From an uncultured Planctomycetia bacterium (GTDB lineage Bacteria > Omnitrophota > Gorgyraeia > Tantalellales > Tantalellaceae), in assembly GCA_964527765.1 (NCBI GenBank), contig CAZGQR010000009.1:4579-68578 (forward strand): 64,000 nt of DNA, written 5' to 3'. The notes beneath the pieces are model-generated. The model was not told where the DNA came from. It searched no databases and worked only from the letters and a program-made list of their open reading frames with translations. This document shows, one piece after another, positions 52,001-64,000 of the stretch; the stretch's first letter is position 1; each line of letters starts with the position of its first letter. A program made the translations under genes and the position numbers.

Positions 52001-55000
52001 TCGCCGCTCTTTTCTGGTGATAGCTCGCGATGTAAAAGATCATGTTATCAAGCCGCTCGTAGACGCCGTTGGGGCTTGCCGCTTTCGCGGAGAAATCTAT
52101 CTTCTTCTTTATCAGCTCCTGCGTAAGATCGATAAAATGCGCGTGGATCTCCGGGGCCCTGTCCGGCTTGAACGTTATGTAAGCACGCACTTCTTCCGCA
52201 CCCGGGTCCCTGTACTTCCCGGTCGATTTGTTGTAAAACAGCATGAAACCTGACGCGTTACGCGTGTCCCCGTTATAGTGATAATCGGACTCTGCGTTTA
52301 TGTGCCTGAAACGGACTTCGATGCCGAACTTTTCGAGCAAGATCTCCCTGAAACCCTGACGGACGGCGCGCCCCTCTTCCAGTATCTTCATGGCCCTTTC
52401 GCGGGATGGCTCGCTTTTTTCTCTCCGTCGTTCTATAAGAAAATTATACATGTATCGCACTACCCGGCCGGCAAGTGTGGGCCTGTCCCCTTCGACAAAA
52501 AGGTTCCCCATTACCGGGGCGATAAAAACATCCGGTTTCCTGTCCACGACAGGAAAAAGAGGGCTTACCTCTACACCGTCCGGTTCCAGAGCGCCGGTAG
52601 ATTCCCCCCGTTGCCGCGCGAACAGTTTTTCGAACTCCGCCAGTTTTTTCGGATCCTTCGCCAGAGCTTTCCTGATCACGTCCGCCTGGGAGAGAAGCCC
52701 CGTGCGCACGAGATACTCGACCAGTTCCTGCGCCGTGGCTTTTCCGGCGAACCCTTTCAAATGTTCGGCATCCAGCCCTCCGCCCATTGGTGGCGATTTA
52801 TCTTCAGGTGATTCGGCAATGGGCGGACGGGCTGTGATGCCGCTGCGGGCAGGCAATTCGTCCGTTATGAATATCCTTATCTGGGGATCGCGGTAATCGC
52901 AGTTCGAATCAAGTTCCTTTCCGTACAGATACGCGCTATAAGGGATCCCACAGGCCTTCAGATAGCTCGTATAGATCTCGAGGTGTTCCAGTTCACCGGA
53001 GGCGAGCCTGCGCTCCGGGAAGAGCTCGTAGTCATCCTTCTTGTCAAACCTGTATATGTATTTGAGCGGGAAATAAAAATCGGCCCGGACGGTCCTGTCC
53101 CGCGAGCGCTTCTCCGAGTCAATAAGAGTGATTATGGAATCGAAACTGTGGCGGTGGCAGGCGCCCCATGCGCCTCCCGTGATCACGAAAACAATATCGT
53201 CATTTTTAAGAACGGTTTCCACCCATTCCGCTTCAAGATCACCTTTATTTATCTGCGTTTCTCCGATCCCGTATTTTGACGCGAGCCGTTCCGGATCGGG
53301 GGCATATGCATCCGAAGGCCTGGTCACGATGCACCGGTGATCGACCGGGCCGAGCGCATCTTCAACGCCGGCGATCGTTCTGCCGGGGATCTCCGGGTGG
53401 ATCTCAAGGGCTGCTATTTTCGCGTCGGTAACGGCTGTTTCTCTGGCGGAAGAGGCCGTGGCACGTGGAGGCTTTGTGAAAACATAAGCGGTATTGACAT
53501 TTATCAGTCCCGGTATTTCCTCAAACCCGGGTTCATTTTCCACGAAATCCTTTCCGTCGAAGTGGCCCCATTTCAGGCTCCACCCACCTTTCTTTACGAG
53601 TTTTTTGCTAAGCTTACGTATAATAGGCCTGTTCTTCCGGTAGGCTTTCGAACTCGGCGGAAACTCTATAATGATCTGTCCGCCGGGCGCCATCCATTCT
53701 CCGAGCTTCTCATACCAGGCATCGGGAATATCCTTCACGTCAACATAAACGGCGACGTTGCATAATCTCAAAGTCCCGACACTGCCCGGCGCAAGATCCA
53801 GGTCGAGTATGTCCTGCTCCAGCACTTCCATCCCGTCGTCCGTCTCCAGCAGCGCCTCTTTTACCTGATTCAAATACGCGATAACAAAAGGATTCTTGTC
53901 CACGAAAACATACTTGCGGTCCTTGGAAAAATTCAAAAAGTAATAAAAGGGATTAGTGCCCGAAGCCAGGTCATAAAAGGGTTTTTTGTTCGCTTCCGCA
54001 TCCGGATTTTCGTGCCCCGCTATGATCCGGTTCAGCTGACCTATTTCCCGTGCGTATTCTATGTTTATGAGGGCCAAAAGCCGGCCTAACAGCGCTACAA
54101 ATTCCTTCGCCTCCGGATCTGCATGCATAGTGCCCGTAAAAGCGGTAAACCGCCGGAACCCGTCAAACATGTAAGGCTGATCAAGTTCTTCATATTCTTC
54201 CACTAAAAGTTCATAAGCCAGGTTAAGATCTTTCGCAGTGTTTAAAGAAAGAAGTAATTTGCCTGCTATTTTGAAAAAATCAAATCCGGTGCGTTCGATC
54301 ATCTCGACGAACTTCGGGTCCTTCTGCATGTAGATCTCTCTGGCGCGGGCGGCAAACCGCTCCGTGTTTTCCGCCGAACGGGCGGCGGGCAGTCCGGGAA
54401 CGGGCTCAAATTCGATGGAAGTCCGCGTTCCTACGATATTCCTGTGATTTTTACCGTAAATTTCCTGTCTTCCATAATACGCCACGCCGTCCAAGGCCCT
54501 GACGGCCTTTTCACCGGCCCCGTAACCGTACAGCTGGGCATTATGAGCCCCTATCGTTTTCCCCGTATCTACGCCCTCTTTCGACGCCGTATCGTATACG
54601 TCCATGACTTTCGCGCTTCCGTGGGGGGAGAGCTCCAGATAAATGAATATGGGACGTTCGAGATCCATTCTGTTCCCGTGCACAAAAGCGTTCTGTAAAA
54701 CCTCCCGGACCGCGGAACGCATGTCTTCTCTGCCAAATGCCCCGGACATACCCCACGCAAGATCGATCAACAGGCCTTTTAACTCTTCGTATTTATTCTT
54801 TACTTTGGAGAGAGCTTTTAGATCGAGACTGACGATCTTCCCGTTTTTGATCGCGTTTATTATTTCGTCTGTCGAAGAAATATCTATCTTGACGATCTCG
54901 GATGCGCCGGTCGTCTCCCTTATCGCCTGCTTCAGGGGATCCAGCGGCGGTAAAACCCTCTGCCCGTCGGCGGATACCGCGGAGAATAAGACCCCCTGCT

Positions 55001-58000
55001 GAAGGATGGGCCGCGGCTGGGGTTCCGGCAGCGGGAATAATGTCAGCTGTTCATAGGCGGGCGCCTTCTTCTCGACCGACATCCTTACCTTATCGAGCAG
55101 ATCCTTCGCCATATATTCAGATATTGCAACGAAACGGCACTTTTGCCGTTCGTCTTCGGGCAGATCCTCCGTTGAAGGATAATAGATCTCCCGGAATCCG
55201 AGTTTTTCAAAGAAATCCTTCGCCTGTTTTCCCTCTTCGGCATATTCGCTGTCCTCTGCCGGGTGCCCCGCGAATATTCCTTCCGCGCTGCCCTTGGTAT
55301 CAGGATCGTTCAGACCCCTTTCAACGGCCTTCGCGATAAGGACCTTGCCCAGGCCTCTCTCTCTATATTCTTCCGAGATCTCCATGTACTCGCCGATATA
55401 AACATCCCGCGCATAAAGTTCCTGCGCCCCTTCTTCAGGGAACATGAACGGGCCCTTGTAATAATACGCCATGCCCAGGAGTTCGCCTTTCTCCGACTGC
55501 AGCTTTGCCAGGAATCCGGGGGAATGCATCTTCCCGTCCATGGCGCCTTCCCAATTACGTCTTTCAAAATAACGTTCCTTCCCCGGGGCGAACCATGCAT
55601 CCAGGGTCTCTTTTATTTTGACCGGATCGGATACCTCCTCCACGTAATACCTGGTATCACCGGTCCGGAAAGGCCCTCCTATAAGTTCTTTCCGTTCTGC
55701 GGCGGGGTGCCGCGTCAGCCCTCCGACATCCTGCCGCGCAAGCAGTTCCTCGAACTCCGCCAGTTTTTGCGGACGCCTCTTTAATGCTTCCCTGATTATA
55801 TCCACCTGATAAAAAAGACCCGTACTCGTAAGATATTTGATCAAGCCTTCCGGCGTCGCTATCCCGGCGAATTCTCCCAACTGTTTAGCATCCAGCCCCC
55901 CGCCGATAGGCGCTGCGGCCTTTGGCTCTTTTGTTTTATCTGTTCCCGGATGTCCGGCAGGATCATGCCCGGCCCATTCCAGTTCCCAAAGCTCTGCCTG
56001 CTTTTCATCCGCTAAATCGATGCTGACGGGTTTCCATCCTTTGCCCTTGAACGGGAATTCGTAATTTTCCCACAGATTTACTTCCGGTATCGTGATCTTT
56101 TGCCTTTTATACCGCCGTCTTATCCTTTCCTTTCCGGAAGCGTAGAACGATCCGATCCCTGCCTTTTTTGCGGCACTGATTATTTCTTTTATGGCATTTT
56201 CCGCCCATGCCCTGTATACATCCCTTACATGGCTCGGCTTTAGTTTCCTATATCCCCTTGAGGGGTGCACTTCATTAAATAAAATCGCCGGCTTTCCGCC
56301 TATGAGCTTAACTTCAGCTTCTATCTGGCCGAATGAACCCTCCGGGCCTATGAACGCCTGCGCGACCGGCATATCCAACACATCCAGTTCAGGATGGCTA
56401 TCCCTATAAGAGACCTCCGGCTCAACGACAAAAACCTTAAATATATCATCATACTCGACCGTTGCCGTCACCCGGTGCCCTTTATGATCCCAGGTGATTT
56501 CCTTCTTACCGGCAAAAGACCCTATAAATTCTTTTTTCAGTTTTTCCATGCCGGCCCGGGGGAGTTCCCGGGGCTTTTCCGCGGGCTGTTCTCCGGACGG
56601 AGTTTTCAAAAAGTGACTGATAAGAAGGCTGCCTATCACAATACCCGCCAGCCCCAGAATACCCCAGATACTTAACGCGCCGATGCCCGCAAGAGCGAAT
56701 GCGGGCAGCATCCGGGTTTGATCCTCCGCGGCGCGGACCGTGAAAACGATATCGCCGAAAGGATTATCTCCCGACCGGTTGGAGTTGATAGACGGCCGCC
56801 ACAGCGATTCTTCATCGGAAAACTTCCCGTAACGGAGGCGCCCTTTAGCGTCCTTGTACCTGTAGCCCGTGACGCGGGCTTCAGCCGTAACCAGATACCT
56901 GCCGGGCCTCTTCGGCTCAAATACGCCCCCGAAAACATAATCGTGATGATGAAGACCCCCCACCGCCTTGTAATCCATGGGTATATACTCGGTCCCGACA
57001 AATTTTCCGTTTTCATCGAACGTGTTGATCTTCAGGCGGGCTTCCAGGCATTTTTCCGCGAAATTGCGATTTTTCTCAAAATCATCCCGGGTTTTTTCCG
57101 GAACGGGATAGAACTCCTCGACCTCGCCAAGGTATACCCTCAAAGTGATCTCGCTGCGCGAATTTGTTTCGCAGTCTATCCTGGCGCCGGAGACGGGGTC
57201 AAGCCCTCCCAGCCATGAAATGCGCGGATAAACGAACGCCTTGTCGAGCCTCTGCGATACGACCAGCTGCCGCAGGATCCCGGATACGTGTTCCAGCGTG
57301 ACGGTGTCCCCCTCAAAATCCATTTCCTCCCTGAGGATGGTCATTATCGTCTCAAGCGAATGAAGATCGTCCTTGGCCCTTTTATTGGCCTCGTAATAAG
57401 GCTCTTTTTGGTCCTCCGGCACATTAAGCTCACTGATCATGCCGTCAAGCACTTCTATATCTTTTGCCAGAGCATTTTTTATGCCGTTCATCTCTTTTAA
57501 AAAGCTGCGGACGTCTTCCACGGTCAGTCGCGCCATATTGCCTTCCATCTTGGAAATGCTGTATCTCGCCTCGGCAATATGACCCGCGGAGTTCTGTCCG
57601 AATTCAGTGTGGGATTCCCGGGATATGTCATCCTTGTGTTGCCTGACCAGGTGCTTTATATTGGACCGTATCAACCCTTCCACCGAAACCACGCTGTTGC
57701 GGAAAAGATGGCTTGTATCGGAAATGATCTGTTCCGGCACTGTCCTTTTGTGCGCTTCCATAAAGAGCATGACCTGTTCCGGATATGTTTTACCGTCTTT
57801 CTCGTCCACGCTTCTCGTATGCGCGTATTTTATGAAATGTTTATACTCCGAGGGATATGCCCTTTCAAGATAATTGACCGCGTCCCTGAACGGAAACTGC
57901 AGCGTGAGCATAAAAAGGAACAGGAAATCTTTTTCCTTCTTCTGATCGGCGGCCAGTATCCCGCCGATGGTCCTGCGGAAGATATGATCGAACCTGGCGG

Positions 58001-61000
58001 GGGTGAACGGGACCATGTCGTATTTCTCCTTGTTGACCGACAAAAGCTTCATGAGATGTTCCCTTACCAGTCTCATGCTCCGGGTCTCGTCCGGTACGGT
58101 TTTCGCCCACTCATTGAACTCATAAATAACAAGATTATCGCGGCACTGGGCCCACTGTTTTCCTATTTCACCGGCGATATCCTCCAGGGCCTCTTCTATG
58201 TCCGCGTAAACCTTCCTGTCGAACCTGTTCAGGCTTACCCGTTCTTTGTTCCCGCTGTCGTACAGCCTGACGGGATTGCCGATGACCTTTTCGCTGTAAT
58301 AATCCGCGGCAAGCTCTTCGACGAACTCCTCTTCCGTTCCATATCCGCCGTGCTGGTCCTGGTAGAGCCTCATAAAACGCGCGAATTTCTCCTGGCCCAG
58401 CCTGCCCCTGAGCCGCCCCAGGAGGGCTTTTACATGATCGTCCGTTATGAGCTCGTGCACTTTTTCGTGAAAATACCCGTAAGTCTGTATTTCGGACCGG
58501 GAGATATTTCTGCCCAGCGTCTCGGAAAGCGATTGCCTGTAGATCTCCATGACCTGTCTCGGCTGCTCCAGGACCCGGGGCGTTTCGCCCTTGATGATGC
58601 GGAAGATACCGAAACGGATGATCTCCCGGGCCTCTTCTTCCCTGCATAACCCCGCATCGACAAGCTTTTTCGTAAAAACCCCCCACAGGTTTCCTTTGCC
58701 TTTTTTGACCATGCGGGGAGGCCGCGAGGAACGTTCTTCGCCCTTGTCTTTCTTTCCGGAGCGCGTCATTACGTCGCATGACATTTCCTTCGGCGTATCA
58801 TCCCAGTGCCTGTAGATCCACTCGCGCAGGATCCAGATCGCTTCTTTGGCCTCTCTGACGGCTTCGGCGTTAACCCCGATCTTTAGCGGGCCCAGCAGAT
58901 TTCCGTATATATCGCTGAGGTCGGCTTCTCCGGAGCTGAACGATTTCATGTTCCTCAGATCCTTGTAACGCCGGCTGCCTTCCTGAAAATATTTCAGGAA
59001 TCTTTCCGCGAGCTCAGCCGCCGAAAGCGAGGAAATTTCTCTCACGAACGGCTCTTCCCAGCGTTCCTTGAATTCTCCCGGCCATTTGCGCGGGTAATAC
59101 GCGAGCTTGACCAGGTCCACAAAGCTTTCAAGGTCAAAGCGGCTTATCCTGTTCCGACGGACGTTCTCTGTATAGTTTTTCCACATCTGGTGCCAGTAAA
59201 TCTCAAGCCGCGATATATCAGTAAGGTTCTCTGTTTCGGATGGAATAGCCGCAGCCTTCAGAAGCTCGCGTTCCTGTTCTTCGTTCAGGCCGAAATCGAG
59301 GGAGAGGGCCCTTAAAAGCTCCGCATATTCCCATTTGTTCAGGGACTCCAGGCTCTCCGATCCCGAATCGCCGAGAGATCGCAGCGTCTTATAAAGATTC
59401 CCGTATTTGACGCTCATTTTTTCAAAGGAACCCGCCAGGGACGGTATCGAATCCACCTCGAGGGCGCGGATAAGGACCTGAAAGGCTTCGAACAGGGGAT
59501 TGGGTATCTTCCTGGAACGTTTCCGGGGGTCGGGCATTTGCATGCTCACGAAAGCGGCGTGGTAGAAAAGCGTCCACAAAAGACGCGGGGAACCCCTTCC
59601 GATATTGTTTTTGCGCGCGAACTGCAGGTACAGGTTGAAATTTTCCACGAAAAGCCGGTCCATGCATTCCGCCGGTTCCCCTTTCAGGCGGGCATCTATA
59701 TACTGGTCCCTCAGGATCTCCATGAACGAATTCAAGAGTTCCGTGAGCCTGAGGCGTTCTCTTGCCGCCTTGATATATTTTCTCGGAAGATTTTTATCCC
59801 ATTCTCCGCCTTTCTGCCATTTCTCGAGTTCTTGCCGTGCTCCCTGCAAAAGGTTGTTCATGCGGTAAAATTCCGGCTCTTTGAGGCTCCTGTCCCGGGT
59901 CATGCCCTGTATCCATCCCAGGGCGGTATCGTTCTTGCCCCTCTCGAGAAACTCCAGTATCCTGTCCGCTTTCCATATGTTAAAACTGTTGCGGTGATGT
60001 ATCCTGTATCTGAGCTCGCTTAATCTCCCGGTCAGTATACGGTCGATCTGGCTCTCAAGCGCTTCCTGCCTGACTTCCAGGAGACTGGCTATGACGCGCA
60101 ATATCTCCAGCGCGCTTCCGTACTCCTCGATCTCCAGAAGCTCCCTGACAAACCCCGACGCCTTGAAAGCGATCGCCTTTTCCCTGACCTTGGCCCTTTT
60201 GAGCGAACTCTCAAGGCCGCCTAAAAGTTCCACGATCTGTTCTTTTCTCTCGATCTCTTCGGCACCGGCGGCACGTTTCCAGCCTTTCCGGCGGCCGACC
60301 GCCTCTTTTGTCTCCTCCAGGGCCTTGATGGATCCCCTGGCCGCGGAGACCGTCCTGCGCACCCAGTCCATCTCCTCGAGGATACTGTCGGTCTCCCTGT
60401 CGCACGTGCGTATCGCCTGCCATGTCAGCTTAGAGGCGTGCTCCGTAACTTCCCTTACATAAGCCTCCCTTTCGCCGGATATCGCATGTTTCGCGTATTT
60501 GCCTTTAAGCACCTTGTACATCCCCGCGCTGGCGTCAAACCACGTTCTCGGCCGCATCCTTCTTTTTCTGGCGCGTGATGCCAGGGCAAGCTCCTCGGCA
60601 AGAAGGCGCGAAGCGGCGCAAAGCGAAGCGCACGCGGCGGACTCATTTTTAATATCTACAAGTTCAATGGCGCGCCCGATCTTTTCCCTGATCTCTTCGC
60701 GGTAATTACGCCCGCCCGTGATAGATAACGGATATGAAGGATCTTCAAGTCGGAACAATTCGCCGTGCATCTCTTCTCTCAGCTTTTCCAGGCGCCCCAG
60801 GCAAACTCGAAGTTTTTCTTCCCTTTCTTCTTCCGGGGCCCCGAAGATCCACCTTATGGACAGCCCGGCGCGCTCGGACGAAAGACGGATAAGTTCAAGG
60901 TTTATCTCGGGGATCCGGCGCAGGTAATAGAACAGGACATCTTTCTCCGCTTCTATATCCAGCAGTATCCTGGCGCGTTCCAGCTGGTCATAATCCGGAC

Positions 61001-63971
61001 CGGCGGACAGCCTTTCAAGTATGACCCTTGCCCCCCCGTACATCCCGGGCGGCCCCCTGCGATACCTTTCGGCCAGTTCATATATGAACGGTTTTTTCTC
61101 TTTGTCGACATGCAGTATGCCGAGGCTGGCCATGCCTTCCAGCTCAGACGATATGGTGCTGTATGAAAAGCTCTTTTCACCGCTCTTCTTCCTCCTGTCC
61201 TGGAATTCCTTTCTGGTAAAAGGACTGTTCCTTAAGGAGCCTTCCCTTAACAGGGTATCAAACCCTTCCAGTATGGAACCGCGCGGCCGGAGCCCTCTCC
61301 TGCCCTTGAACATCTCTCCGATCTGCGGCAAAGGAGGCGCCCGGGGAATGGGCACAGGCTCGGCCTCCGCTTCTTCCTTTCGGGACCTTCGCCTCATGAT
61401 CAATATCGCGGAAAGCAGCAGGACCAGCGGCACCAGGTTCCCTATATCGAAATCCGTGTTTTCCGTCGTGAAGGCGCAGCAGCATCCGCGTTTTTCTTTT
61501 TTCTCCTTGTCAAAAAGGTACCACTGGTAGGGCGACCAGCCCGCGGAGATCGTCACTGACTCCGAATAATCGCTGTCCTTCTGGCCGTCCGGCATTTCCG
61601 TGCGAATGCTCAGATCATAATCACCCGAATGCATGTGATCGGGCAGATCGACCGCATACGAGGATGTCCCTGCCCCGGGAACAAAAAATGTATCCGTGCC
61701 TATCCGTATCGTGTAACCGGTGACCGATCCCTGCAGGGCGCCGGTGTACGGCACCCAGTCCACGGTGAACGTCCTGCCGCCGGCGGCGATCACGTCTATG
61801 ATCTCGGGCGCGAACGGTTTGACTTCCGCCGACATGTTCCAGTGCTGTATGGTATCCGCCTGGGGATCGGTTATCGTGAATCCCGTATCGTCCTGCCAGA
61901 AAAGCGCTCCTTCCGCACCGGCATTGTACACCGAATCCATTTTTACGGAAATATTCGTCGGCTCGAGCTCGGTAAAAGAGAACGGCCCGTCCAGCCCGCT
62001 GGGAGGCTGAAGAGCCCCCATGTAATCATAATAATGGATCCCGTACTTATCCAGGCCGAGAGCGTTCCAGTTCAGCACCGTGTCCTTGTTCTGGGCCCCG
62101 ACCGTGACCACCGAACCCGGGTCCTGAATATGGATCATGTCGGCAAGATCCGCCACGAAAGACTGTACCTCCGGGAGGGTGGCGGTCGCCGCCCACACGA
62201 TCTCTATCGGTTCGTTTATGATGTCCCACTCGACGATCTCGCGCCGGAGCGAATACTGATTTACGAACTGCGCCATCAGATTTATCAAGGCGGCCTTTTT
62301 CACGGGATCGGTTATGAGTTCAGGGTATTCGCCCACGGGATTCGGCCCTTCCATGTCCACGCCGTCGGCCAGCGTGTAGTCGAACAGGGTGGGAATGAGT
62401 TTTATGCCCAGGGCGTTCGCGGCGTCCATGAGCGCGTCCATATCCTCATACACGTGGGCGGAAAAGGATATGGGGGCGCCGCCGCCGTCAAAGACGACAC
62501 CGGACCTTAAGTCACAGAAAAGAAATACCCGCAGATAGCCGCCCTTCCACCGGTTAAGTTCCTGGTAAAGCGCGCTCTTTTTCGTCGCTATGCCTTCGTA
62601 CGGCTCGCCGTTCACGCCGTCTCCTATATCATATCCGTATTTTTCCCAATAATTCGCGCCGCGGGCGAACGTCCAGCCCGGCGTCCACTCCTCGATGATC
62701 TCCTGGACCGGATCGACCTTTTCCACGCTGCCGTCGGGGTAATACGTTATAAACTCGGTAAGGTTCCAGGAGCCGTCATACGCGAAAGTCCAGATCGTCC
62801 CGTCCGTGTCATGCCTGCTGTTTATGTATTCATCGATCCCGTCCAGACAAAAGGAAGCCACCGTGCCGTCATCATACGTCCTGGTAAGGTAATTCGCGTC
62901 TATTGCCTCTTCTGATGCCATGGTAGAGGTGATCGGTGTATATTTTCCCGTACCGGCCGTGGCCGCGATCGGCGCCAAAAGCAGGAAGAAACAAAGCGTT
63001 AAAATGACGAATATCCTTGCCATCCAGCTGACCATCCCGAACACAAAGGGCAGCAGGAATGAATAAAACGTTCTGCCGTTTTCGGGAAGCAGGATTTCGG
63101 CTTTTTTTATCGCCTCATCCAGCGGCACCGGATGAACGACCCCCCTTCGTTTGATCTGTTTCCTCATTTCTTTAAGCAGCTTCAATATGTCCTCCGCTGC
63201 TTCTTTTTGCCCGACACTGCGGTTGAACTGGCCGGCATGCTCCCTGGCAAGGTCCATGCCCTCCGCTCCGGACGGATCCAGCACCAGCAGTTCGCTCAGG
63301 TTCTGCATCGCCCGCGGGAGCATGATCTTCGGATATTTGTCTTTAAGGGTGGAAATGATGACCGCCAGGATAAATCTTCCCATGACCGACCGCGCTTTAC
63401 CGTCAAACTTCCCGGGCAACCCTTGTTTTATGAATCCCTGCAAGCCGACGTAAAAATCGGCTGTTCTTTCTTCCTCCCAGGAATAGGTCAGCGACTTGGG
63501 AAACACATGGGCCGGGATCCTCCACACCGATAATTCCCTGAATATCCTGCTGTAGACATCCTGCTGGCCCTTATCGTCAAGATCGTCAAGCGCGAAATCT
63601 TTCCTGCTTGCGATGGTTTCTGCAAGCAGGGGCTGGATCTTTTTAAACGTGTCTTCGTCAAGAAACCCGCGGAATTTCATGATCTTCAGCCAGCCTTTGA
63701 CATCCGCTTCATTGTGTATGATAATTGTCCGCGGATATAAGCGGCGTTCGGTGAGGGCGCAGAACGCGTCGGCCACCGAAAAAAGATTCACTCTTATGCC
63801 AAGTTGCCGGTTAACTTTTTTGAGGGTCTCTCTTAATCTGGGTTCATGATTCACGGCTATGGTCAGGATGGCTTCCGGCGGCAGCCGAATACCGCTTTTC
63901 TTAAGGACCGCAAGCGAATCCCCGGTATGGTCATGGATCCTTTTCTTCTCGTTATCCGTCATCTGCGCCAA
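49020..63971 (-). CDS. giant multidomain membrane-anchored protein, 4983 aa: TM-flanked extracytoplasmic GH-A-like domain plus ~4100-aa cytoplasmic region with GNAT-, GHKL-ATPase-, SAM-MTase- and two kinase-like domains
   Basis: Single uninterrupted 14.9-kb reading frame. Codon usage and GC are continuous with neighbours. The domain motifs are detailed in the sub-features. No in-frame stop between 63971 and the window end, so the 5' end may lie outside the window. Codon 1 as reported appears to be TTG. An ATG (M4, ~63960-63962) has AGGA 11 nt upstream. Confidence 0.85.
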   Translation of the reverse strand: MAQMTDNEKKRIHDHTGDSLAVLKKSGIRLPPEAILTIAVNHEPRLRETLKKVNRQLGIRVNLFSVADAFCALTERRLYPRTIIIHNEADVKGWLKIMKFRGFLDEDTFKKIQPLLAETIASRKDFALDDLDDKGQQDVYSRIFRELSVWRIPAHVFPKSLTYSWEEERTADFYVGLQGFIKQGLPGKFDGKARSVMGRFILAVIISTLKDKYPKIMLPRAMQNLSELLVLDPSGAEGMDLAREHAGQFNRSVGQKEAAEDILKLLKEMRKQIKRRGVVHPVPLDEAIKKAEILLPENGRTFYSFLLPFVFGMVSWMARIFVILTLCFFLLLAPIAATAGTGKYTPITSTMASEEAIDANYLTRTYDDGTVASFCLDGIDEYINSRHDTDGTIWTFAYDGSWNLTEFITYYPDGSVEKVDPVQEIIEEWTPGWTFARGANYWEKYGYDIGDGVNGEPYEGIATKKSALYQELNRWKGGYLRVFLFCDLRSGVVFDGGGAPISFSAHVYEDMDALMDAANALGIKLIPTLFDYTLADGVDMEGPNPVGEYPELITDPVKKAALINLMAQFVNQYSLRREIVEWDIINEPIEIVWAATATLPEVQSFVADLADMIHIQDPGSVVTVGAQNKDTVLNWNALGLDKYGIHYYDYMGALQPPSGLDGPFSFTELEPTNISVKMDSVYNAGAEGALFWQDDTGFTITDPQADTIQHWNMSAEVKPFAPEIIDVIAAGGRTFTVDWVPYTGALQGSVTGYTIRIGTDTFFVPGAGTSSYAVDLPDHMHSGDYDLSIRTEMPDGQKDSDYSESVTISAGWSPYQWYLFDKEKKEKRGCCCAFTTENTDFDIGNLVPLVLLLSAILIMRRRSRKEEAEAEPVPIPRAPPLPQIGEMFKGRRGLRPRGSILEGFDTLLREGSLRNSPFTRKEFQDRRKKSGEKSFSYSTISSELEGMASLGILHVDKEKKPFIYELAERYRRGPPGMYGGARVILERLSAGPDYDQLERARILLDIEAEKDVLFYYLRRIPEINLELIRLSSERAGLSIRWIFGAPEEEREEKLRVCLGRLEKLREEMHGELFRLEDPSYPLSITGGRNYREEIREKIGRAIELVDIKNESAACASLCAASRLLAEELALASRARKRRMRPRTWFDASAGMYKVLKGKYAKHAISGEREAYVREVTEHASKLTWQAIRTCDRETDSILEEMDWVRRTVSAARGSIKALEETKEAVGRRKGWKRAAGAEEIERKEQIVELLGGLESSLKRAKVREKAIAFKASGFVRELLEIEEYGSALEILRVIASLLEVRQEALESQIDRILTGRLSELRYRIHHRNSFNIWKADRILEFLERGKNDTALGWIQGMTRDRSLKEPEFYRMNNLLQGARQELEKWQKGGEWDKNLPRKYIKAARERLRLTELLNSFMEILRDQYIDARLKGEPAECMDRLFVENFNLYLQFARKNNIGRGSPRLLWTLFYHAAFVSMQMPDPRKRSRKIPNPLFEAFQVLIRALEVDSIPSLAGSFEKMSVKYGNLYKTLRSLGDSGSESLESLNKWEYAELLRALSLDFGLNEEQERELLKAAAIPSETENLTDISRLEIYWHQMWKNYTENVRRNRISRFDLESFVDLVKLAYYPRKWPGEFKERWEEPFVREISSLSAAELAERFLKYFQEGSRRYKDLRNMKSFSSGEADLSDIYGNLLGPLKIGVNAEAVREAKEAIWILREWIYRHWDDTPKEMSCDVMTRSGKKDKGEERSSRPPRMVKKGKGNLWGVFTKKLVDAGLCREEEAREIIRFGIFRIIKGETPRVLEQPRQVMEIYRQSLSETLGRNISRSEIQTYGYFHEKVHELITDDHVKALLGRLRGRLGQEKFARFMRLYQDQHGGYGTEEEFVEELAADYYSEKVIGNPVRLYDSGNKERVSLNRFDRKVYADIEEALEDIAGEIGKQWAQCRDNLVIYEFNEWAKTVPDETRSMRLVREHLMKLLSVNKEKYDMVPFTPARFDHIFRRTIGGILAADQKKEKDFLFLFMLTLQFPFRDAVNYLERAYPSEYKHFIKYAHTRSVDEKDGKTYPEQVMLFMEAHKRTVPEQIISDTSHLFRNSVVSVEGLIRSNIKHLVRQHKDDISRESHTEFGQNSAGHIAEARYSISKMEGNMARLTVEDVRSFLKEMNGIKNALAKDIEVLDGMISELNVPEDQKEPYYEANKRAKDDLHSLETIMTILREEMDFEGDTVTLEHVSGILRQLVVSQRLDKAFVYPRISWLGGLDPVSGARIDCETNSRSEITLRVYLGEVEEFYPVPEKTRDDFEKNRNFAEKCLEARLKINTFDENGKFVGTEYIPMDYKAVGGLHHHDYVFGGVFEPKRPGRYLVTAEARVTGYRYKDAKGRLRYGKFSDEESLWRPSINSNRSGDNPFGDIVFTVRAAEDQTRMLPAFALAGIGALSIWGILGLAGIVIGSLLISHFLKTPSGEQPAEKPRELPRAGMEKLKKEFIGSFAGKKEITWDHKGHRVTATVEYDDIFKVFVVEPEVSYRDSHPELDVLDMPVAQAFIGPEGSFGQIEAEVKLIGGKPAILFNEVHPSRGYRKLKPSHVRDVYRAWAENAIKEIISAAKKAGIGSFYASGKERIRRRYKRQKITIPEVNLWENYEFPFKGKGWKPVSIDLADEKQAELWELEWAGHDPAGHPGTDKTKEPKAAAPIGGGLDAKQLGEFAGIATPEGLIKYLTSTGLFYQVDIIREALKRRPQKLAEFEELLARQDVGGLTRHPAAERKELIGGPFRTGDTRYYVEEVSDPVKIKETLDAWFAPGKERYFERRNWEGAMDGKMHSPGFLAKLQSEKGELLGMAYYYKGPFMFPEEGAQELYARDVYIGEYMEISEEYRERGLGKVLIAKAVERGLNDPDTKGSAEGIFAGHPAEDSEYAEEGKQAKDFFEKLGFREIYYPSTEDLPEDERQKCRFVAISEYMAKDLLDKVRMSVEKKAPAYEQLTLFPLPEPQPRPILQQGVLFSAVSADGQRVLPPLDPLKQAIRETTGASEIVKIDISSTDEIINAIKNGKIVSLDLKALSKVKNKYEELKGLLIDLAWGMSGAFGREDMRSAVREVLQNAFVHGNRMDLERPIFIYLELSPHGSAKVMDVYDTASKEGVDTGKTIGAHNAQLYGYGAGEKAVRALDGVAYYGRQEIYGKNHRNIVGTRTSIEFEPVPGLPAARSAENTERFAARAREIYMQKDPKFVEMIERTGFDFFKIAGKLLLSLNTAKDLNLAYELLVEEYEELDQPYMFDGFRRFTAFTGTMHADPEAKEFVALLGRLLALINIEYAREIGQLNRIIAGHENPDAEANKKPFYDLASGTNPFYYFLNFSKDRKYVFVDKNPFVIAYLNQVKEALLETDDGMEVLEQDILDLDLAPGSVGTLRLCNVAVYVDVKDIPDAWYEKLGEWMAPGGQIIIEFPPSSKAYRKNRPIIRKLSKKLVKKGGWSLKWGHFDGKDFVENEPGFEEIPGLINVNTAYVFTKPPRATASSARETAVTDAKIAALEIHPEIPGRTIAGVEDALGPVDHRCIVTRPSDAYAPDPERLASKYGIGETQINKGDLEAEWVETVLKNDDIVFVITGGAWGACHRHSFDSIITLIDSEKRSRDRTVRADFYFPLKYIYRFDKKDDYELFPERRLASGELEHLEIYTSYLKACGIPYSAYLYGKELDSNCDYRDPQIRIFITDELPARSGITARPPIAESPEDKSPPMGGGLDAEHLKGFAGKATAQELVEYLVRTGLLSQADVIRKALAKDPKKLAEFEKLFARQRGESTGALEPDGVEVSPLFPVVDRKPDVFIAPVMGNLFVEGDRPTLAGRVVRYMYNFLIERRREKSEPSRERAMKILEEGRAVRQGFREILLEKFGIEVRFRHINAESDYHYNGDTRNASGFMLFYNKSTGKYRDPGAEEVRAYITFKPDRAPEIHAHFIDLTQELIKKKIDFSAKAASPNGVYERLDNMIFYIASYHQKRAARIIRRYLKRHDIAGGALPATDADPKVKGLSWARDPSRKESEIWRKISGSSKKASYNMMIAAYAAADYLEKLAFRQDELGDADAAREFRAEALRVRAILTGKEAAQPKMMSARLPLRPEVRIDDDLLWGGLRETIWPLGTRRLKAALKRALSEILEDVKQQVSPTSRNFIIRGIRYIESGDYKDVFRVEAEVDDGRRIKFGCRLIDEENYEDIMTAQEKVGREIDWFKQLRALNGVAIFIKKSYYIEDDFSRRLSRDLDKQDIYGLTIGEFADGVSIDRIDDPAEKEKAYREAIETIIRAWLLTAEKDESGEAVGFYIRDMKGQNLVLQHSDAHLSPVVYVDLGLGTKGAMVWVLGGIREMLKFELGITSGSSKEIEFLRVIPRTIDEFLAREANIDDKRRELILDIFREIEESISIMEKHLNDTELFGETEPGLPMFGEEEWRELLGTEDAGAAGDAEFGFAAASDAAEELLKQLERDPRLKQLVDRSILGVSEEEHDEEKYDYMASGYVSDIFQDMSDPDVFYKVSRMDEDEQGIRYNNEVNIKEAQALVELDKLGVREGIPRLITLGTTPNGAFWMKLKGMEEGEDLAAGRWQELGPLEKIDVFIRVAEILHRMHEAGWTHNDVAPDNILFNRGGQVMLIDFGLARPEGERVGGGHDRFSTGDKDACPQRDIYGLGRTIEHLFIEDERRDSGVSGHDITVSGLGLLVMGMTAGDTDRRTPDNMKDVMDELDKVRSFFKARLAADGDASRVKPAEDMEILPEKRIMRRMETVLPELVNGLITACHRREKIVLAVDEELAGGEIREQLGRLIGALKDRAGGNDQLAYFLKNIVIRYGNGKNLAAGLESVVQNGDGSVRRENVMIVTSSENREKYFKGFEGSSTITEITDNGLTSEHYYPLMEVVLFTLFRALARMGEHGDEGWVEYWREKFISCYRTIDNAADLDEDAIWEMCWDRTAECYRTTVIIRLIPGAVKVPDRGVYKKIEELIASAA
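49751..50471 (-). other. giant ORF: Hanks-type (eukaryotic-like) Ser/Thr protein kinase-like domain 2 (aa ~4500-4740)
   Basis: FWMKLKG (beta3 Lys), catalytic loop WTHNDVAPDNILF (nt ~50106-50135), DFG as MLIDFGLARPEG (nt 50068-50076), subdomain IX-like DIYGLGRTIEHLF. Confidence 0.6.
50771..51371 (-). other. giant ORF: degenerate protein-kinase-like domain 1 (aa ~4200-4400)
   Basis: Catalytic-loop-like FYIRDMKGQNLVL (nt ~51030-51050, RD-K-x-x-N retained, His lost) and DFG-position VVYVDLGLG. Confidence 0.4.
52620..52795 (-). repeat. giant ORF: internal module copy B (aa ~3725-3783), PMGGGLDAEHLKGFAGKATAQELVEYLVRTGLLSQADVIRKALAKDPKKLAEFEKLFARQ
   Basis: Paralogous to copy A. Shared nucleotide strings include ggctggatgc, ttcgccgg and aaaaactggcggagttcga. 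Confidence 0.7.
53561..53951 (-). other. giant ORF: class I SAM-dependent methyltransferase-like domain (aa ~3340-3470)
   Basis: Motif I-like ILDLDLAPGSVGTL (nt ~53780-53820) and post-I/motif II-like WMAPGGQIIIEFPP (nt ~53664-53699) at typical spacing. Confidence 0.45.
54401..54821 (-). other. giant ORF: GHKL/HATPase_c-like domain resembling RsbW/SpoIIAB-type serine-kinase anti-sigma factors (aa ~3050-3190)
   Basis: N-box AVREVLQNAFVHGN (nt ~54672-54710), downstream Gly-rich boxes DTGKTIG and GYGAGEKAVRAL. Confidence 0.5.
55211..55631 (-). other. giant ORF: GNAT-like N-acetyltransferase domain (aa ~2780-2920)
   Basis: Motif A-like RERGLGKVLIAKAVERG (nt ~55325-55375), with beta-strand pattern GELLGMAYYY...VYIGEYMEISEEY upstream and DFFEKLGFREI downstream. 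Confidence 0.5.
55745..55915 (-). repeat. giant ORF: internal module copy A (aa ~2685-2742), PIGGGLDAKQLGEFAGIATPEGLIKYLTSTGLFYQVDIIREALKRRPQKLAEFEELLARQ
   Basis: ~50% aa identity, and visible DNA-level similarity, to copy B at 52620-52795. Confidence 0.7.
56610..56715 (-). other. giant ORF: third 35-aa hydrophobic segment (aa ~2419-2454), possible re-entrant/hairpin membrane anchor
   Basis: MLPAFALAGIGALSIWGILGLAGIVIGSLLISHFL. Gly-rich centre. Topological consequence uncertain. Confidence 0.4.
61393..61436 (-). other. giant ORF: predicted transmembrane segment 2 (aa ~846-859) followed by RRRSRK
   Basis: NLVPLVLLLSAILIM then RRRSRKEEAEAE (positive-inside), returning the chain to the cytoplasm. 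Confidence 0.6.
61437..62960 (-). other. giant ORF: predicted extracytoplasmic domain (aa ~338-845) with clan GH-A (GH5-like) glycoside-hydrolase signatures and a C-terminal FN3/Ig-like module
   Basis: EWDIINEPIE (NEP acid/base motif, nt ~62209-62217). ~80 aa downstream FTELEP (candidate nucleophile Glu). Aromatic-rich beta/alpha pattern. Then a beta-rich segment (TFTVDWVPYTGALQGSVTGYTIRIG...YDLSIR) and CCC just before TM2. Confidence 0.5.
62961..63068 (-). other. giant ORF: predicted transmembrane segment 1 (aa ~302-337)
   Basis: FYSFLLPFVFGMVSWMARIFVILTLCFFLLLAPIAATAG. The long hydrophobic stretch is preceded by a charged cytoplasmic-looking region. Confidence 0.6.
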
Positions 63972-63974
63972 ATT

Positions 63975-63999
63975 CCTGGCGCTATAGTGAAGCGCCAGG
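63975..63999 (-). other. perfect 9-bp stem / 7-nt loop hairpin (cctggcgct-atagtga-agcgccagg) immediately 5' of the giant-ORF reported start
   Basis: Seen directly. Could be a terminator of an upstream gene, a 5'-UTR structure, or coding if the ORF continues upstream. Confidence 0.4.
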
Positions 64000-64000
64000 T

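What the first reader, a model, noticed from the sequence alone, without database searches (positions are those of the whole stretch)
61393..63068. Predicted TM-ectodomain-TM loop near the N-terminus with clan GH-A (NEP...TELE) glycosidase signatures
Only ~510 aa of a ~5000-aa protein appear extracytoplasmic. They are bracketed by a 36-aa hydrophobic segment and a 14-aa TM followed by RRRSRK. Inside is the sequence EWDIINEPIE with a second acidic motif FTELEP ~80 aa later. This is the hallmark acid/base plus nucleophile spacing of (beta/alpha)8 family-5-like glycoside hydrolases. A beta-rich FN3/Ig-like segment and a Cys-Cys-Cys triplet precede TM2. An extracellular polysaccharide-recognition or hydrolysis head tethered to a giant cytoplasmic body is unusual.
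Basis: partly seen in the sequence, partly recalled or inferred. Interest (0 to 1): 0.7.

Follow-up and report, generated by a model that had tools for sequence, protein, structure and literature searches.

The report
GH5 glycanase loop in giant protein
About 500 residues of a 6,184-residue membrane protein from an uncultured, probably Omnitrophota, bacterium form a family-5 glycoside hydrolase domain (closest to animal-type beta-mannanases) held outside the cytoplasmic membrane between two membrane helices, and the same cassette recurs in related giant proteins, so it is an interesting but not unprecedented feature.

Summary

In nine related proteins the first helix looks like an internal signal peptide: basic N-flank, Pro, then (A/V)-x-A. 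The second helix is followed by a basic cluster. This supports an in-out-in loop.

The ORF runs off the window, so the real protein has 6,184 residues and the loop sits at residues 1503-2066, not near the N-terminus. The full protein also has an N-terminal signal-like anchor and a third hydrophobic stretch, so "only 510 residues outside" is unproven.

The cassette (YD-like region, GH5, FN3/Ig-like domain, G-(G/S)-C motif) is conserved in at least 10 Omnitrophota-type proteins of 1,700-6,400 residues. These resemble the regulatory "very long proteins" already described for that phylum.

Most likely function: a catalytically competent beta-glycanase tethered to the membrane. Substrate and role were not tested. 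Interest is moderate.

The parts
49020..64000 (-). C-terminal 4,983 codons of a 6,184-codon gene. The ORF runs off the window's right end; window aa k = aa k+1201 of the full protein P0113.
62955..63068 (-). Hydrophobic segment 1 (aa 302-339). The core IFVILTLCFFLLLAPIAATA (62955-63014) looks like an internal signal peptide or start-transfer helix: 'MAR' n-region, Pro at -6, A-T-A at -3..-1.
   Evidence: Modelled as one continuous helix.
62691..62954 (-). Short beta-rich YD-repeat-like region (aa 340-427) ending in the conserved 'YDGSWNLTE..YxPDG' motif. It is about 90 aa shorter than in paralogues P0114-P0118.
   Evidence: RHS_repeat E = 0.04-0.075 and YD_repeat_2x E = 0.05, both below threshold. 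Alignments; beta strands.
61815..62690 (-). GH5 (clan GH-A) (beta/alpha)8 catalytic domain, aa 428-719, closest to subfamily GH5_10 beta-mannanases.
62211..62213 (-). E587, the Glu of the N-E-P motif just after strand beta4 (predicted general acid/base). Invariant in 110 homologues.
61968..61970 (-). E668, the first Glu of T-E-L-E-P on strand beta7 (predicted nucleophile). At least 90% conserved in 110 homologues and invariant in the cassette family.
61542..61802 (-). FN3/Ig-like seven-strand beta-sandwich (aa 724-810).
   Evidence: fn3 E = 0.002-0.005. The homologous P0114 segment passes PF25523. Block pLDDT 69-90 in model 2.
61476..61484 (-). CCC triplet. It corresponds to a conserved G-(G/S)-C motif 10-20 residues before helix 2 in all paralogous cassettes.
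61395..61451 (-). Hydrophobic segment 2 (aa 841-859, FDIGNLVPLVLLLSAILIM), a stop-transfer helix.
61377..61394 (-). Basic cluster RRRSRK on the cytoplasmic side of helix 2.
61020..61277 (-). Conserved ~85-aa 'SILEGF...FSYSTISSELEG..LGIL' motif directly after helix 2. I read it as winged-helix-like by eye; this was not tested. A second copy lies upstream of helix 1 in the full protein, which argues that both flanks of the loop are in the same compartment.

Best explanation
Window 61377-63068 (minus strand) encodes an extracytoplasmic cassette inside a 6,184-residue membrane protein of an uncultured, probably Omnitrophota, bacterium.

Order of parts:
1. An internal, signal-peptide-like start-transfer helix.
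2. A short YD-repeat-like beta region.
3. A complete GH5 (beta/alpha)8 domain closest to subfamily GH5_10 endo-beta-1,4-mannanases, with E587 (acid/base), E668 (nucleophile) and the other hallmark residues (Arg on beta2, Asn before the acid/base, His/Tyr on beta6, Trp on beta8) intact.
4. An FN3/Ig-like sandwich.
5. A conserved G-(G/S)-C motif (CCC here).
6. A stop-transfer helix followed by RRRSRK.

Shown here: domain identity, conservation of the catalytic residues, recurrence of the cassette, and charge and signal-peptide features that place the loop outside the cytoplasmic membrane.

Inferred: the domain is an active retaining endo-beta-glycanase acting on a beta-1,4-mannan-like or related beta-linked glycan. 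It would be held at the outer face of the cytoplasmic membrane. There it would cut or grip glycans of a prey or host envelope, of exopolysaccharide, or of periplasmic oligosaccharides. It is physically coupled to a very large body of regulatory-type domains (HD, GNAT, HATPase-like, HopA1-like, kinase-like).
For: Domain identity:
- The profile of the domain hits GH5_10 structures 3VUP (9.5e-28), 2C0H (7.5e-25), 5Y6T and 4OOU. NEP and GE align to their motifs. Other GH5 mannanases score only 1e-6.
- 2C0H and 4OOU are GH5_10 (PMC5576741).
- The AF2 model has pLDDT >90 over the barrel and 8 strands.
- Foldseek's top hits are the same four enzymes.
- In 110 homologues R142, D171, E248 (= E587) and G286 are invariant. 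N247, H307, Y309, E329 (= E668) and W353 are at least 90% conserved.
- Homologue P0002 passes PF00150 (32.9 bits against 23.5).

Location:
- Nine cassettes have 36 K/R before helix 1 against 3 after it, and 7 K/R before helix 2 against 46 after it.
- All nine helix 1 sequences end in (A/V)-x-A with a Pro at -4..-8.
- Stand-alone homologues P0001, P0002 and P0004 carry N-terminal signal-peptide-like sequences in front of the same YD+GH5 unit.
- The loop has 6% K+R against 14-17% in the flanks.

Recurrence:
- The same cassette occurs in P0113-P0118, P0128, P0130, P0132/L001 and P0133.
- The ORF was recovered on 15 contigs from independent assemblies.
Against: - The window sequence alone reaches no Pfam or PDB hit.
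- The nearest characterised enzymes are only 20-25% identical, so substrate cannot be assigned.
- No topology predictor could be run.
- The full protein starts with a signal-like anchor (aa 10-34). By helix parity this would put the 1,470 residues before helix 1 outside, or the GH5 loop inside, unless hydrophobic segment 1 is a hairpin or the anchor does not span the membrane.
- The strictly apolar core of helix 2 is only 14 residues.
- No carbohydrate-uptake, secretion or EPS genes lie nearby; the neighbours are housekeeping genes.
- If the cell has an outer membrane (not tested), the loop is periplasmic rather than extracellular.
- One paralogue (P0118) has SEP instead of NEP.
Confidence: 0.6

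Rival explanations
1. Sensor head. The GH5 domain serves mainly as a glycan-binding receptor, and its occupancy is relayed through helix 2 to the cytoplasmic regulatory body. Hydrolysis would be secondary or lost.
For: - The cytoplasmic-type part carries kinase-like, HATPase_c_2, GNAT and HopA1-like hits, plus an HD hit in the full protein.
- A conserved ~85-aa motif (winged-helix-like by eye, not tested) lies immediately after helix 2 in every paralogue.
- Paralogue P0118 ends in PAS, GGDEF and Pkinase domains and has SEP in place of NEP.
- The family fits the 'Module 1' signal-transduction class of Omnitrophota long proteins.
Against: - Both catalytic Glu and the other hallmark residues are kept in all cassette copies and nearly all of 110 homologues. 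Lectin-like derivatives of glycosidases usually lose them (my own knowledge).
- The kinase-like domain is about 3,700 residues from helix 2.
- I found no precedent for a GH5 sensor domain.
Confidence: 0.2
2. Polyprotein or embedded secreted cassette. Helix 1 is a true internal signal peptide cleaved by signal peptidase I after A339. The G-(G/S)-C + helix + basic tail acts like a sorting or anchoring signal. The giant ORF would then be split, and the YD-GH5-FN3 unit becomes the head of a type-I membrane protein or is released or lipid-anchored.
For: - All nine helix 1 sequences end in (A/V)-x-A preceded by Pro and have a basic n-region.
- Stand-alone homologues P0001, P0002 and P0004 start with an ordinary signal-peptide-like sequence followed by the same YD+GH5 unit. 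This suggests in-frame capture of a secreted-protein gene.
- The Cys motif, helix and Arg/Lys cluster have the tripartite layout of C-terminal sorting signals.
Against: - Known sorting-domain models do not match: MYXO-CTERM 9.8 bits against a cut-off of 20, JDVT-CTERM 9.4 against 27, both E about 1.
- None of 6,299 ORFs in the fetched loci ends in a Cys-motif/helix/basic tail of this kind.
- No sortase-like gene was seen nearby.
- The AXA site may simply be an inherited remnant.
Confidence: 0.15
3. Housekeeping processing of the cell's own glycans. The loop would act as a periplasmic, inner-membrane-tethered glycanase that trims self-made exopolysaccharide or periplasmic glucans. From memory, PslG and BcsZ do this in other bacteria. 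It would not attack foreign surfaces.
For: - The anchoring helices leave the domain at the outer face of the cytoplasmic membrane.
- The gene sits among housekeeping genes (recA, alaS, his, trp), not next to secretion or pilus systems.
- A phosphomannomutase-type gene and a nucleotide-sugar epimerase gene occur in the window.
Against: - No polysaccharide synthase or export genes lie in the 64-kb window or the upstream 6 kb.
- The same GH5 clade is embedded in huge YD-repeat surface proteins (P0119-P0123), which suggests outward-facing roles.
Confidence: 0.15
4. The hydrophobic segments do not span the membrane, or the parity is reversed, so the GH5 domain is cytoplasmic.
For: - The N-terminal signal-like anchor plus a single-pass helix 1 would formally put the loop inside.
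- West-Roberts et al. note that topology calls on such giants are unreliable.
Against: - Charge bias is consistent in nine cassettes.
- The AXA/Pro signal-peptide features are present in all nine.
- Stand-alone homologues appear to be secreted.
- The loop composition is poor in Lys/Arg and rich in Tyr/Trp/Asn/Ser/Thr/Gly.
Confidence: 0.05

Closest known systems
GH5 subfamily 10 endo-beta-1,4-mannanases (5Y6T Eisenia fetida, 3VUP Aplysia kurodai, 2C0H Mytilus edulis, 4OOU/4OOZ Cryptopygus antarcticus)
   Same: - The (beta/alpha)8 fold is the same, with NEP acid/base and beta7 Glu nucleophile, Arg on beta2, His/Tyr on beta6 and Trp on beta8.
- These are by far the best sequence-profile and structural matches.
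   Different: - Identity is only 20-25%.
- The barrel is more compact (about 290 against about 350 residues), with 81 residues between the two Glu.
- The domain is embedded in a bacterial giant membrane protein rather than being a small secreted digestive enzyme.
- Bacterial GH5_10 members are uncharacterised (PMC5576741).
- Subfamily placement by CAZy or dbCAN was not tested.
Stand-alone YD-repeat + GH5 proteins of Omnitrophota MAGs with N-terminal signal-peptide-like sequences (P0001, P0002, P0004; 667-900 aa)
   Same: They share the same unit (YD-like repeats, 'SWNL' motif, GH5 barrel) at 34-39% identity, preceded by a hydrophobic N-terminal segment ending in an A-x-A-type site.
   Different: They are independent genes with an N-terminal signal-peptide-like sequence and no downstream helix. 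Here the unit lies in-frame inside a 6,184-aa ORF and is closed by a second helix.
Very long / giant membrane-associated proteins of Omnitrophota (West-Roberts et al. 2023 'Archaeovorins'; 'Module 1' regulatory class in bioRxiv 10.64898/2026.06.07.730766)
   Same: - Multi-kiloresidue ORFs with transmembrane helices and/or a signal peptide.
- Domain content of methyltransferase, HATPase, GNAT and HD type.
- Glycosyl hydrolase domains reported in such proteins; proposed roles in prey or host surface attack.
   Different: - 6,184 aa is far below the >30,000-aa 'giant' class.
- No SecA_DEAD or HEAT hits were found.
- The locus has no flanking T2SS, pilus or PilZ genes.
- Neither paper's main text contains the terms GH5 or mannanase, or (in the 2026 preprint) cellulase. 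A GH5 loop cassette bounded by an internal signal-peptide-like helix therefore appears not to be described there.
Tripartite C-terminal sorting signals (MYXO-CTERM TIGR03901, JDVT-CTERM and similar)
   Same: The layout is the same: a short signature with Gly/Cys, a hydrophobic helix, then an Arg/Lys cluster.
   Different: - The element is internal, not C-terminal.
- HMM scores are far below the cut-offs, with E about 1.
- No partner sorting enzyme and no other proteins with such a tail were found.
- It is a resemblance only.
Inner-membrane-tethered periplasmic clan GH-A exopolysaccharide hydrolases such as PslG (recalled from memory, not tested)
   Same: A GH-A barrel followed by a beta-sandwich domain, held at the outer face of the cytoplasmic membrane.
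   Different: Those are small proteins with one N-terminal anchor, encoded in EPS operons. Here there are two anchors, a giant cytoplasmic-type body and no EPS genes nearby.

Membership tests
Clan GH-A / glycoside hydrolase family 5 | (beta/alpha)8 TIM-barrel fold | tested here: met
Clan GH-A / glycoside hydrolase family 5 | General acid/base Glu in an Asn-Glu-Pro motif at the C-terminal end of strand beta4 | tested here: met
   N586-E587-P588 directly follow strand E242-247 of the model. E is invariant and N at least 90% conserved in 110 homologues. The motif aligns to NEP of 3VUP, 2C0H and 5Y6T.
Clan GH-A / glycoside hydrolase family 5 | Nucleophile Glu at the end of strand beta7 | tested here: met
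   E668 lies in strand E325-330 of the model. It is at least 90% conserved in 110 homologues and invariant in the cassette family. It aligns to the G-E of the reference mannanases.
Clan GH-A / glycoside hydrolase family 5 | Other conserved GH5 active-site residues (Arg on beta2, His and Tyr on beta6, Trp on beta8) | tested here: met
   R142 is invariant. H307, Y309 and W353 are at least 90% conserved and are matched in the PDB alignments.
Clan GH-A / glycoside hydrolase family 5 | Score above the curated Pfam PF00150 (Cellulase/GH5) threshold | tested here: inconclusive
   The window sequence gives no hit. Homologue P0002 scores 32.9 bits against 23.5. Only 14 of 110 family members hit PF00150 at E <= 0.001. 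The family profile hits GH5 structures at 1e-27.
Clan GH-A / glycoside hydrolase family 5 | Retaining beta-glycosidase activity | not testable with these tools
   Needs an enzyme assay.
GH5 subfamily 10 | Closest relatives are GH5_10 members rather than other subfamilies | tested here: met
GH5 subfamily 10 | Placement inside the subfamily by CAZy/dbCAN subfamily model or phylogeny; endo-beta-1,4-mannanase activity | not tested
   No dbCAN library was available and no tree was built. Activity needs an experiment.
Fibronectin type III / Ig-like domain | Pfam fn3-type score above threshold; seven-strand beta-sandwich | tested here: inconclusive
   The window scores fn3 17-19 bits against a cut-off of 25. 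The orthologous P0114 segment passes PF25523 (29 against 27). Model 2 gives 7 strands with block pLDDT 69-90.
YD / RHS repeat | Repeat models above threshold | tested here: inconclusive
   TIGR01643 scores 14.1 bits against 15.8. PF05593 gives E = 0.04-0.075. Paralogues and stand-alone homologues carry longer YD-type arrays.
Two-helix extracytoplasmic loop (in-out-in topology) | Two hydrophobic helices with positive-inside charge bias; loop homologous to secreted domains | tested here: met
   K/R counts are 36/3 around helix 1 and 7/46 around helix 2 in nine cassettes. Homologues carry N-terminal signal-peptide-like sequences. A formal predictor (DeepTMHMM) was not available.
Known C-terminal sorting domains (MYXO-CTERM, JDVT-CTERM and similar) | Match to the curated NCBIfam/TIGRFAM model above its cut-off; C-terminal position | tested here: not met
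   The best scores are 9.8 bits (cut-off 20) and 9.4 bits (cut-off 27), both E about 1. The element is internal.
'Archaeovorin' giant proteins (West-Roberts et al. 2023) | More than 30,000 aa, SecA_DEAD-like domain, HEAT repeats, many transmembrane helices | tested here: not met
   The protein has 6,184 aa. There are no SecA or HEAT hits in the 4,983 aa scanned. Four hydrophobic stretches were found. It resembles the smaller 'Module 1' regulatory long proteins instead.

The most novel reading that the evidence does not exclude
The giant ORF is a polyprotein built around an embedded secreted-protein gene.

The internal signal peptide (A-T-A|G at window aa 339/340) would be cleaved by signal peptidase I. 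This would split the 6,184-residue product into two parts:
- an N-terminal ~1,540-residue piece ending in a membrane helix;
- a receptor-like type-I membrane enzyme with a YD-GH5-FN3 head, one helix and a ~4,100-residue cytoplasmic tail.

The conserved G-(G/S)-C + helix + basic element would be a new internal anchoring or sorting signal. Recognition or cleavage of a surface glycan, for example on a prey or host cell, would then be coupled directly to the kinase-, acetyltransferase- and HopA1-like modules of the tail.
Probability: 0.12. Interest if true: 0.7.

Novelty: new variant of a known kind. Interest (0 to 1): 0.4.

Why it matters
What the very long proteins of Omnitrophota do, and which parts of them face outside, are open questions. 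Published topology calls are admitted to be unreliable.

This cassette is useful for two reasons:
- It is a small domain that can be expressed on its own, with a clear predicted chemistry (a retaining GH5 beta-glycanase).
- It is bounded by two helices whose orientation is unusually well defined. It therefore fixes the orientation of the neighbouring ~1,500 and ~4,100 residues and gives a direct biochemical entry point (substrate screen, catalytic mutants).

It also widens the poorly sampled bacterial side of GH5_10. That subfamily is so far characterised only in animals and is suspected to have reached them by transfer from bacteria.

It does not overturn current ideas. It fits the view that these proteins combine surface carbohydrate-active parts with intracellular regulatory parts.

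Tried and rejected
1. Single-sequence searches of the loop against Pfam, NCBIfam and PDB sequences gave nothing significant. Only the profile built from four homologues revealed GH5.
2. An exact look-up of the window ORF starting from its first Met failed, because the true gene starts 1,201 codons upstream. The whole-ORF homology search recovered the full protein.
3. tblastn of the whole giant against 80 genome loci carrying the GH5 domain found no similarity outside the loop. Those loci do not hold orthologues of the body.
4. The idea of a known C-terminal sorting signal around CCC/helix 2 was rejected. MYXO-CTERM and JDVT-CTERM both gave E about 1. None of 6,299 ORFs in the fetched loci ends in a comparable tail.
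5. Internal translation start at M317 ('MARIF...') as a separate secreted protein was rejected. The Met is not conserved in paralogues P0115, P0117 or P0130, and the upstream frame is conserved coding sequence.
6. A chance NEP...E motif was rejected (E = 1e-27).
7. Assembly artefact or gene fusion was rejected. The identical 6,184-aa product occurs on 15 contigs from JGI and Logan assemblies.
8. The second AF2 run, on a 6-sequence alignment, gave a poor barrel (mean pLDDT 54). It was used only for the FN3-like part and the helices.
9. Model coordinates are not exposed, so the Glu-Glu carboxylate distance could not be measured.
10. The literature search for the Omnitrophota envelope type was uninformative.

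Full report
**1. What is at the coordinates**

A single minus-strand ORF (49020..63971, 4,983 codons) covers the finding.
- a hydrophobic stretch at aa 302-339 (nt 62955-63068)
- EWDIINEPIE at aa 581, with E587 at nt 62211-62213
- FTELEP at aa 666, with E668 at nt 61968-61970
- CCC at aa 830-832
- a second hydrophobic stretch at aa 841-859
- RRRSRK at nt 61377-61394

The loop differs in composition from the rest of the protein. It has 6% Lys+Arg against 14-17% in the flanks, and it is rich in Tyr/Trp and Asn/Ser/Thr/Gly.

**2. The ORF is truncated by the window**

The reading frame stays open up to the last complete codon of the window. A search with the whole ORF found P0113. This protein has 6,184 residues and is 100% identical over the whole query. 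It is encoded on 15 contigs from independent JGI and Logan assemblies. Window residue k equals P0113 residue k+1201.

Two consequences follow:
- The loop lies at residues 1503-2066 of 6,184, not near the N-terminus.
- The full protein begins with a signal-like hydrophobic anchor (aa 10-34).

**3. Identity of the loop domain**

The window sequence alone gives no significant Pfam, NCBIfam or PDB-sequence hit. It does have four clear homologues at E about 1e-50. Two are labelled Omnitrophica MAGs, and one passes the Pfam GH5 model PF00150.

A profile of the 292-residue core plus these four homologues was searched against PDB sequences:
- 3VUP scores 9.5e-28, 2C0H 7.5e-25, 5Y6T 9.6e-21 and 4OOU 1.3e-19.
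- The NEP and G-E motifs are in register with those of the reference enzymes.
- Other GH5 mannanases score only about 1e-6.

2C0H and 4OOU belong to GH5 subfamily 10 (PMC5576741). That subfamily's characterised members are animal endo-beta-1,4-mannanases plus one xylanase. Its bacterial members are uncharacterised.

In the 110-sequence alignment:
- Invariant: the Arg of beta2, an Asp, the NEP Glu (= E587) and a Gly.
- At least 90% conserved: the NEP Asn, the His and Tyr of beta6, the beta7 Glu (= E668) and the beta8 Trp.

In the model, E587 directly follows strand 4 and E668 lies on strand 7. By the established clan GH-A rule (my own knowledge) these are the acid/base and the nucleophile.

The clade is divergent. 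Only 14 of 110 members reach PF00150 at E <= 0.001. It is also small, with 727 cluster representatives at E <= 0.001 among 1.84 billion.

**4. The other parts of the loop**

- Before the barrel there is a short beta-rich region with sub-threshold YD/RHS repeat signals. It is about 90 residues longer in the paralogues and clearly YD-like there.
- After the barrel there is an FN3/Ig-like sandwich. The window scores fn3 at E = 0.002-0.005. The equivalent P0114 segment passes PF25523. A second model gives seven strands with block pLDDT 69-90.
- The CCC triplet corresponds to a conserved G-(G/S)-C motif 10-20 residues before helix 2 in every paralogue.

**5. A recurring cassette**

The whole-protein search and the exhaustive representative search found the same unit in at least ten proteins: P0113-P0118, P0128, P0130, P0132 (the L001 type) and P0133. 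The unit consists of helix 1, YD-like region, GH5, usually FN3, the Cys motif, helix 2 and a basic cluster. These proteins have 1,700-6,400 residues.

P0116 is annotated as Candidatus Omnitrophota. The best genome matches to the GH5 core are also Omnitrophota MAGs. The window therefore probably comes from that phylum. This is an inference, because the window's own genome was not identified.

In L001/P0132 only the cassette is similar to the window protein (47% identity); the flanks are unrelated. The cassette thus behaves as a mobile module.

Related GH5 domains also occur in two other settings:
- small proteins with N-terminal signal-peptide-like sequences (P0001, P0002, P0004)
- huge YD-repeat surface proteins (P0119-P0123)

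**6. Topology**

No predictor was available, so I used hydropathy and the positive-inside rule on nine cassettes:
- The 15 residues before helix 1 hold 36 Lys/Arg; those after it hold 3.
- The 15 residues before helix 2 hold 7 Lys/Arg; those after it hold 46.
- Every helix 1 ends in (A/V)-x-A with a Pro 4-8 residues earlier. This is the signal peptidase I pattern (my own knowledge).
- Stand-alone homologues begin with a signal-peptide-like sequence in front of the same unit.

Together these support an in-out-in arrangement with the GH5 domain outside the cytoplasmic membrane.

The topology of the rest of the protein is not settled. The N-terminal anchor of the full protein ends in a conserved (A/V)-W-A-(Y/G)-(P/G) motif that is shared even with the YD-repeat giants. 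If it spans the membrane with its N-terminus inside, the 1,470 residues before helix 1 would be outside, unless hydrophobic segment 1 is a hairpin. Those residues contain an HD-domain hit and a conserved ~85-aa motif. AF2 draws segment 1 as one helix, at low confidence. The same ~85-aa motif occurs both before helix 1 and directly after helix 2. This argues that the two flanks share a compartment. The third hydrophobic stretch adds further uncertainty. The statement 'only ~510 residues are outside' is therefore plausible but unproven.

**7. Context**

The window and the upstream 6 kb hold housekeeping genes:
- in the window: ftsH, uvrB, valS, leuA-type, thrA-type, his and trp genes, alaS and recA
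- from the source contig, downstream of the giant gene: cinA and a LigT-type gene
- from the source contig, upstream of the giant gene: smc and a divergent GAF-GGDEF gene

There are no secretion, pilus, sugar-uptake or exopolysaccharide genes next to the giant gene.

The rest of the protein carries weak hits to GNAT, HATPase_c_2, HopA1 and protein-kinase-like models and to HD. Its paralogues add methyltransferase, HATPase, PAS, GGDEF and Pkinase domains. This matches the 'Module 1' signal-transduction class of Omnitrophota long proteins in bioRxiv 10.64898/2026.06.07.730766. It also fits the general picture of membrane-associated giants with glycosyl hydrolase domains in West-Roberts et al. 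2023.

The protein does not meet the Archaeovorin definition: it has 6,184 residues and no SecA_DEAD or HEAT hits. Neither paper's main text contains the terms GH5 or mannanase, and the 2026 preprint also lacks 'cellulase'.

**8. Most likely mechanism**

Shown:
- a complete GH5_10-like catalytic domain with intact catalytic machinery
- a position between a start-transfer and a stop-transfer helix
- conservation of the cassette across paralogues

Inferred:
- The domain is an active retaining endo-beta-glycanase held at the outer face of the cytoplasmic membrane.
- It acts on a beta-1,4-mannan-like or related glycan. The substrate cannot be assigned at 20-25% identity to characterised enzymes.
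- The YD-like and FN3-like parts act as spacers or binding aids.
- The enzyme is physically coupled to a large regulatory body.

I give the whole statement about 0.6. By component: domain identity about 0.95, outside location about 0.8, catalytic competence about 0.65.

Rivals:
- a sensor role, in which the domain mainly binds ligand (0.2)
- polyprotein processing at the internal signal peptide and the Cys/helix/basic element (0.15)
- trimming of the cell's own glycans in the periplasm (0.15)
- a cytoplasmic location (0.05)

If the organism has an outer membrane, which was not tested, the loop is periplasmic rather than extracellular.

**9. Novelty and score**

The fold, the family and the idea of carbohydrate-active parts in long Omnitrophota membrane proteins are all known. 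What is new in detail is the conserved in-frame cassette. It looks like a captured secreted YD-GH5 gene, complete with its signal peptide, closed by a Cys-motif/helix/basic element and placed inside proteins of regulatory type.

I rate it a new variant of a known kind, with interest 0.4. It is a useful handle on the topology and biochemistry of these proteins, but it would not greatly surprise a specialist.

Noticed in passing
window 63972-64000 and beyond (L081 6001-24555): The giant ORF runs off the right end of the window. The true gene has 6,184 codons, 1,201 more upstream. The upstream part encodes a region with an HD-domain hit and, by eye, further helix-turn-helix-like and AbrB-like stretches (not tested).
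   Followed up: yes
P0113 aa 10-34 (L081 ~6028-6102); also the N-termini of P0115-P0120, P0122, P0123 and the L001 ORF: A conserved N-terminal hydrophobic anchor ends in (A/V)-W-A-(Y/G/S/D)-(P/G). It is shared by otherwise unrelated large Omnitrophota proteins, both the regulatory-type giants and the YD-repeat surface giants. It may be a lineage-specific signal peptide or sorting motif, and it creates a helix-parity problem for the topology of this protein.
   Followed up: partly
window 56601-56711 (-), aa 2421-2457: A third hydrophobic stretch of 37 residues (MLPAFALAGIGALSIWGILGLAGIVIGSLLISHFLKT) lies in the supposedly cytoplasmic body. An equivalent stretch exists in P0114-P0116. If it crosses the membrane once, the C-terminal 2,500 residues would be on the other side.
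   Followed up: partly
window 61020-61277 (-) and P0113 aa ~470-545 (outside the window): An ~85-residue motif (SILEG[YF]...FSY.T[IV].SEL[DE]G...LGIL...RGPP), winged-helix-like by eye, is repeated before helix 1 and immediately after helix 2. It is present after helix 2 in all paralogues.
   Followed up: partly
window 50055-50366, 51891-52259, 55188-55580 (-): The giant's body gives weak Pfam hits to protein-kinase/Kdo/APH-like, HopA1 (a type III effector family) and GNAT acetyltransferase models. A HATPase_c_2 hit lies at aa 3082-3133.
   Followed up: no
window ~49023-49772 (-): A ~250-residue C-terminal domain (VPELVNGLITA..KIVLAVDEELG...YYPLMEVVLF...LIPGAVKVP) is conserved at the extreme C-terminus of P0113-P0118 and has no Pfam hit.
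   Followed up: no
window 1-64000: Every ORF scanned that has a Pfam hit is on the minus strand, and GC skew is negative throughout. These ORFs include ftsH, uvrB, valS, his and trp genes, alaS, recA and the giant gene. This is an unusually long co-oriented stretch.
   Followed up: no
P0118 aa ~3753; P0129, P0205, P0232: Paralogue P0118 has S-E-P instead of N-E-P at the acid/base motif. P0129 (5,101 aa) gave two matched stretches to the GH5 query in the representative search. Related GH5 domains sit deep inside proteins of up to 7,866 residues.
   Followed up: no
L081 4533-5783 (upstream of the gene, outside the window): A divergently transcribed GAF-GGDEF (diguanylate cyclase) gene lies directly upstream of the giant gene. 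The giant carries an HD-domain hit, and paralogue P0118 ends in a GGDEF domain. This hints at a cyclic-di-GMP link.
   Followed up: no
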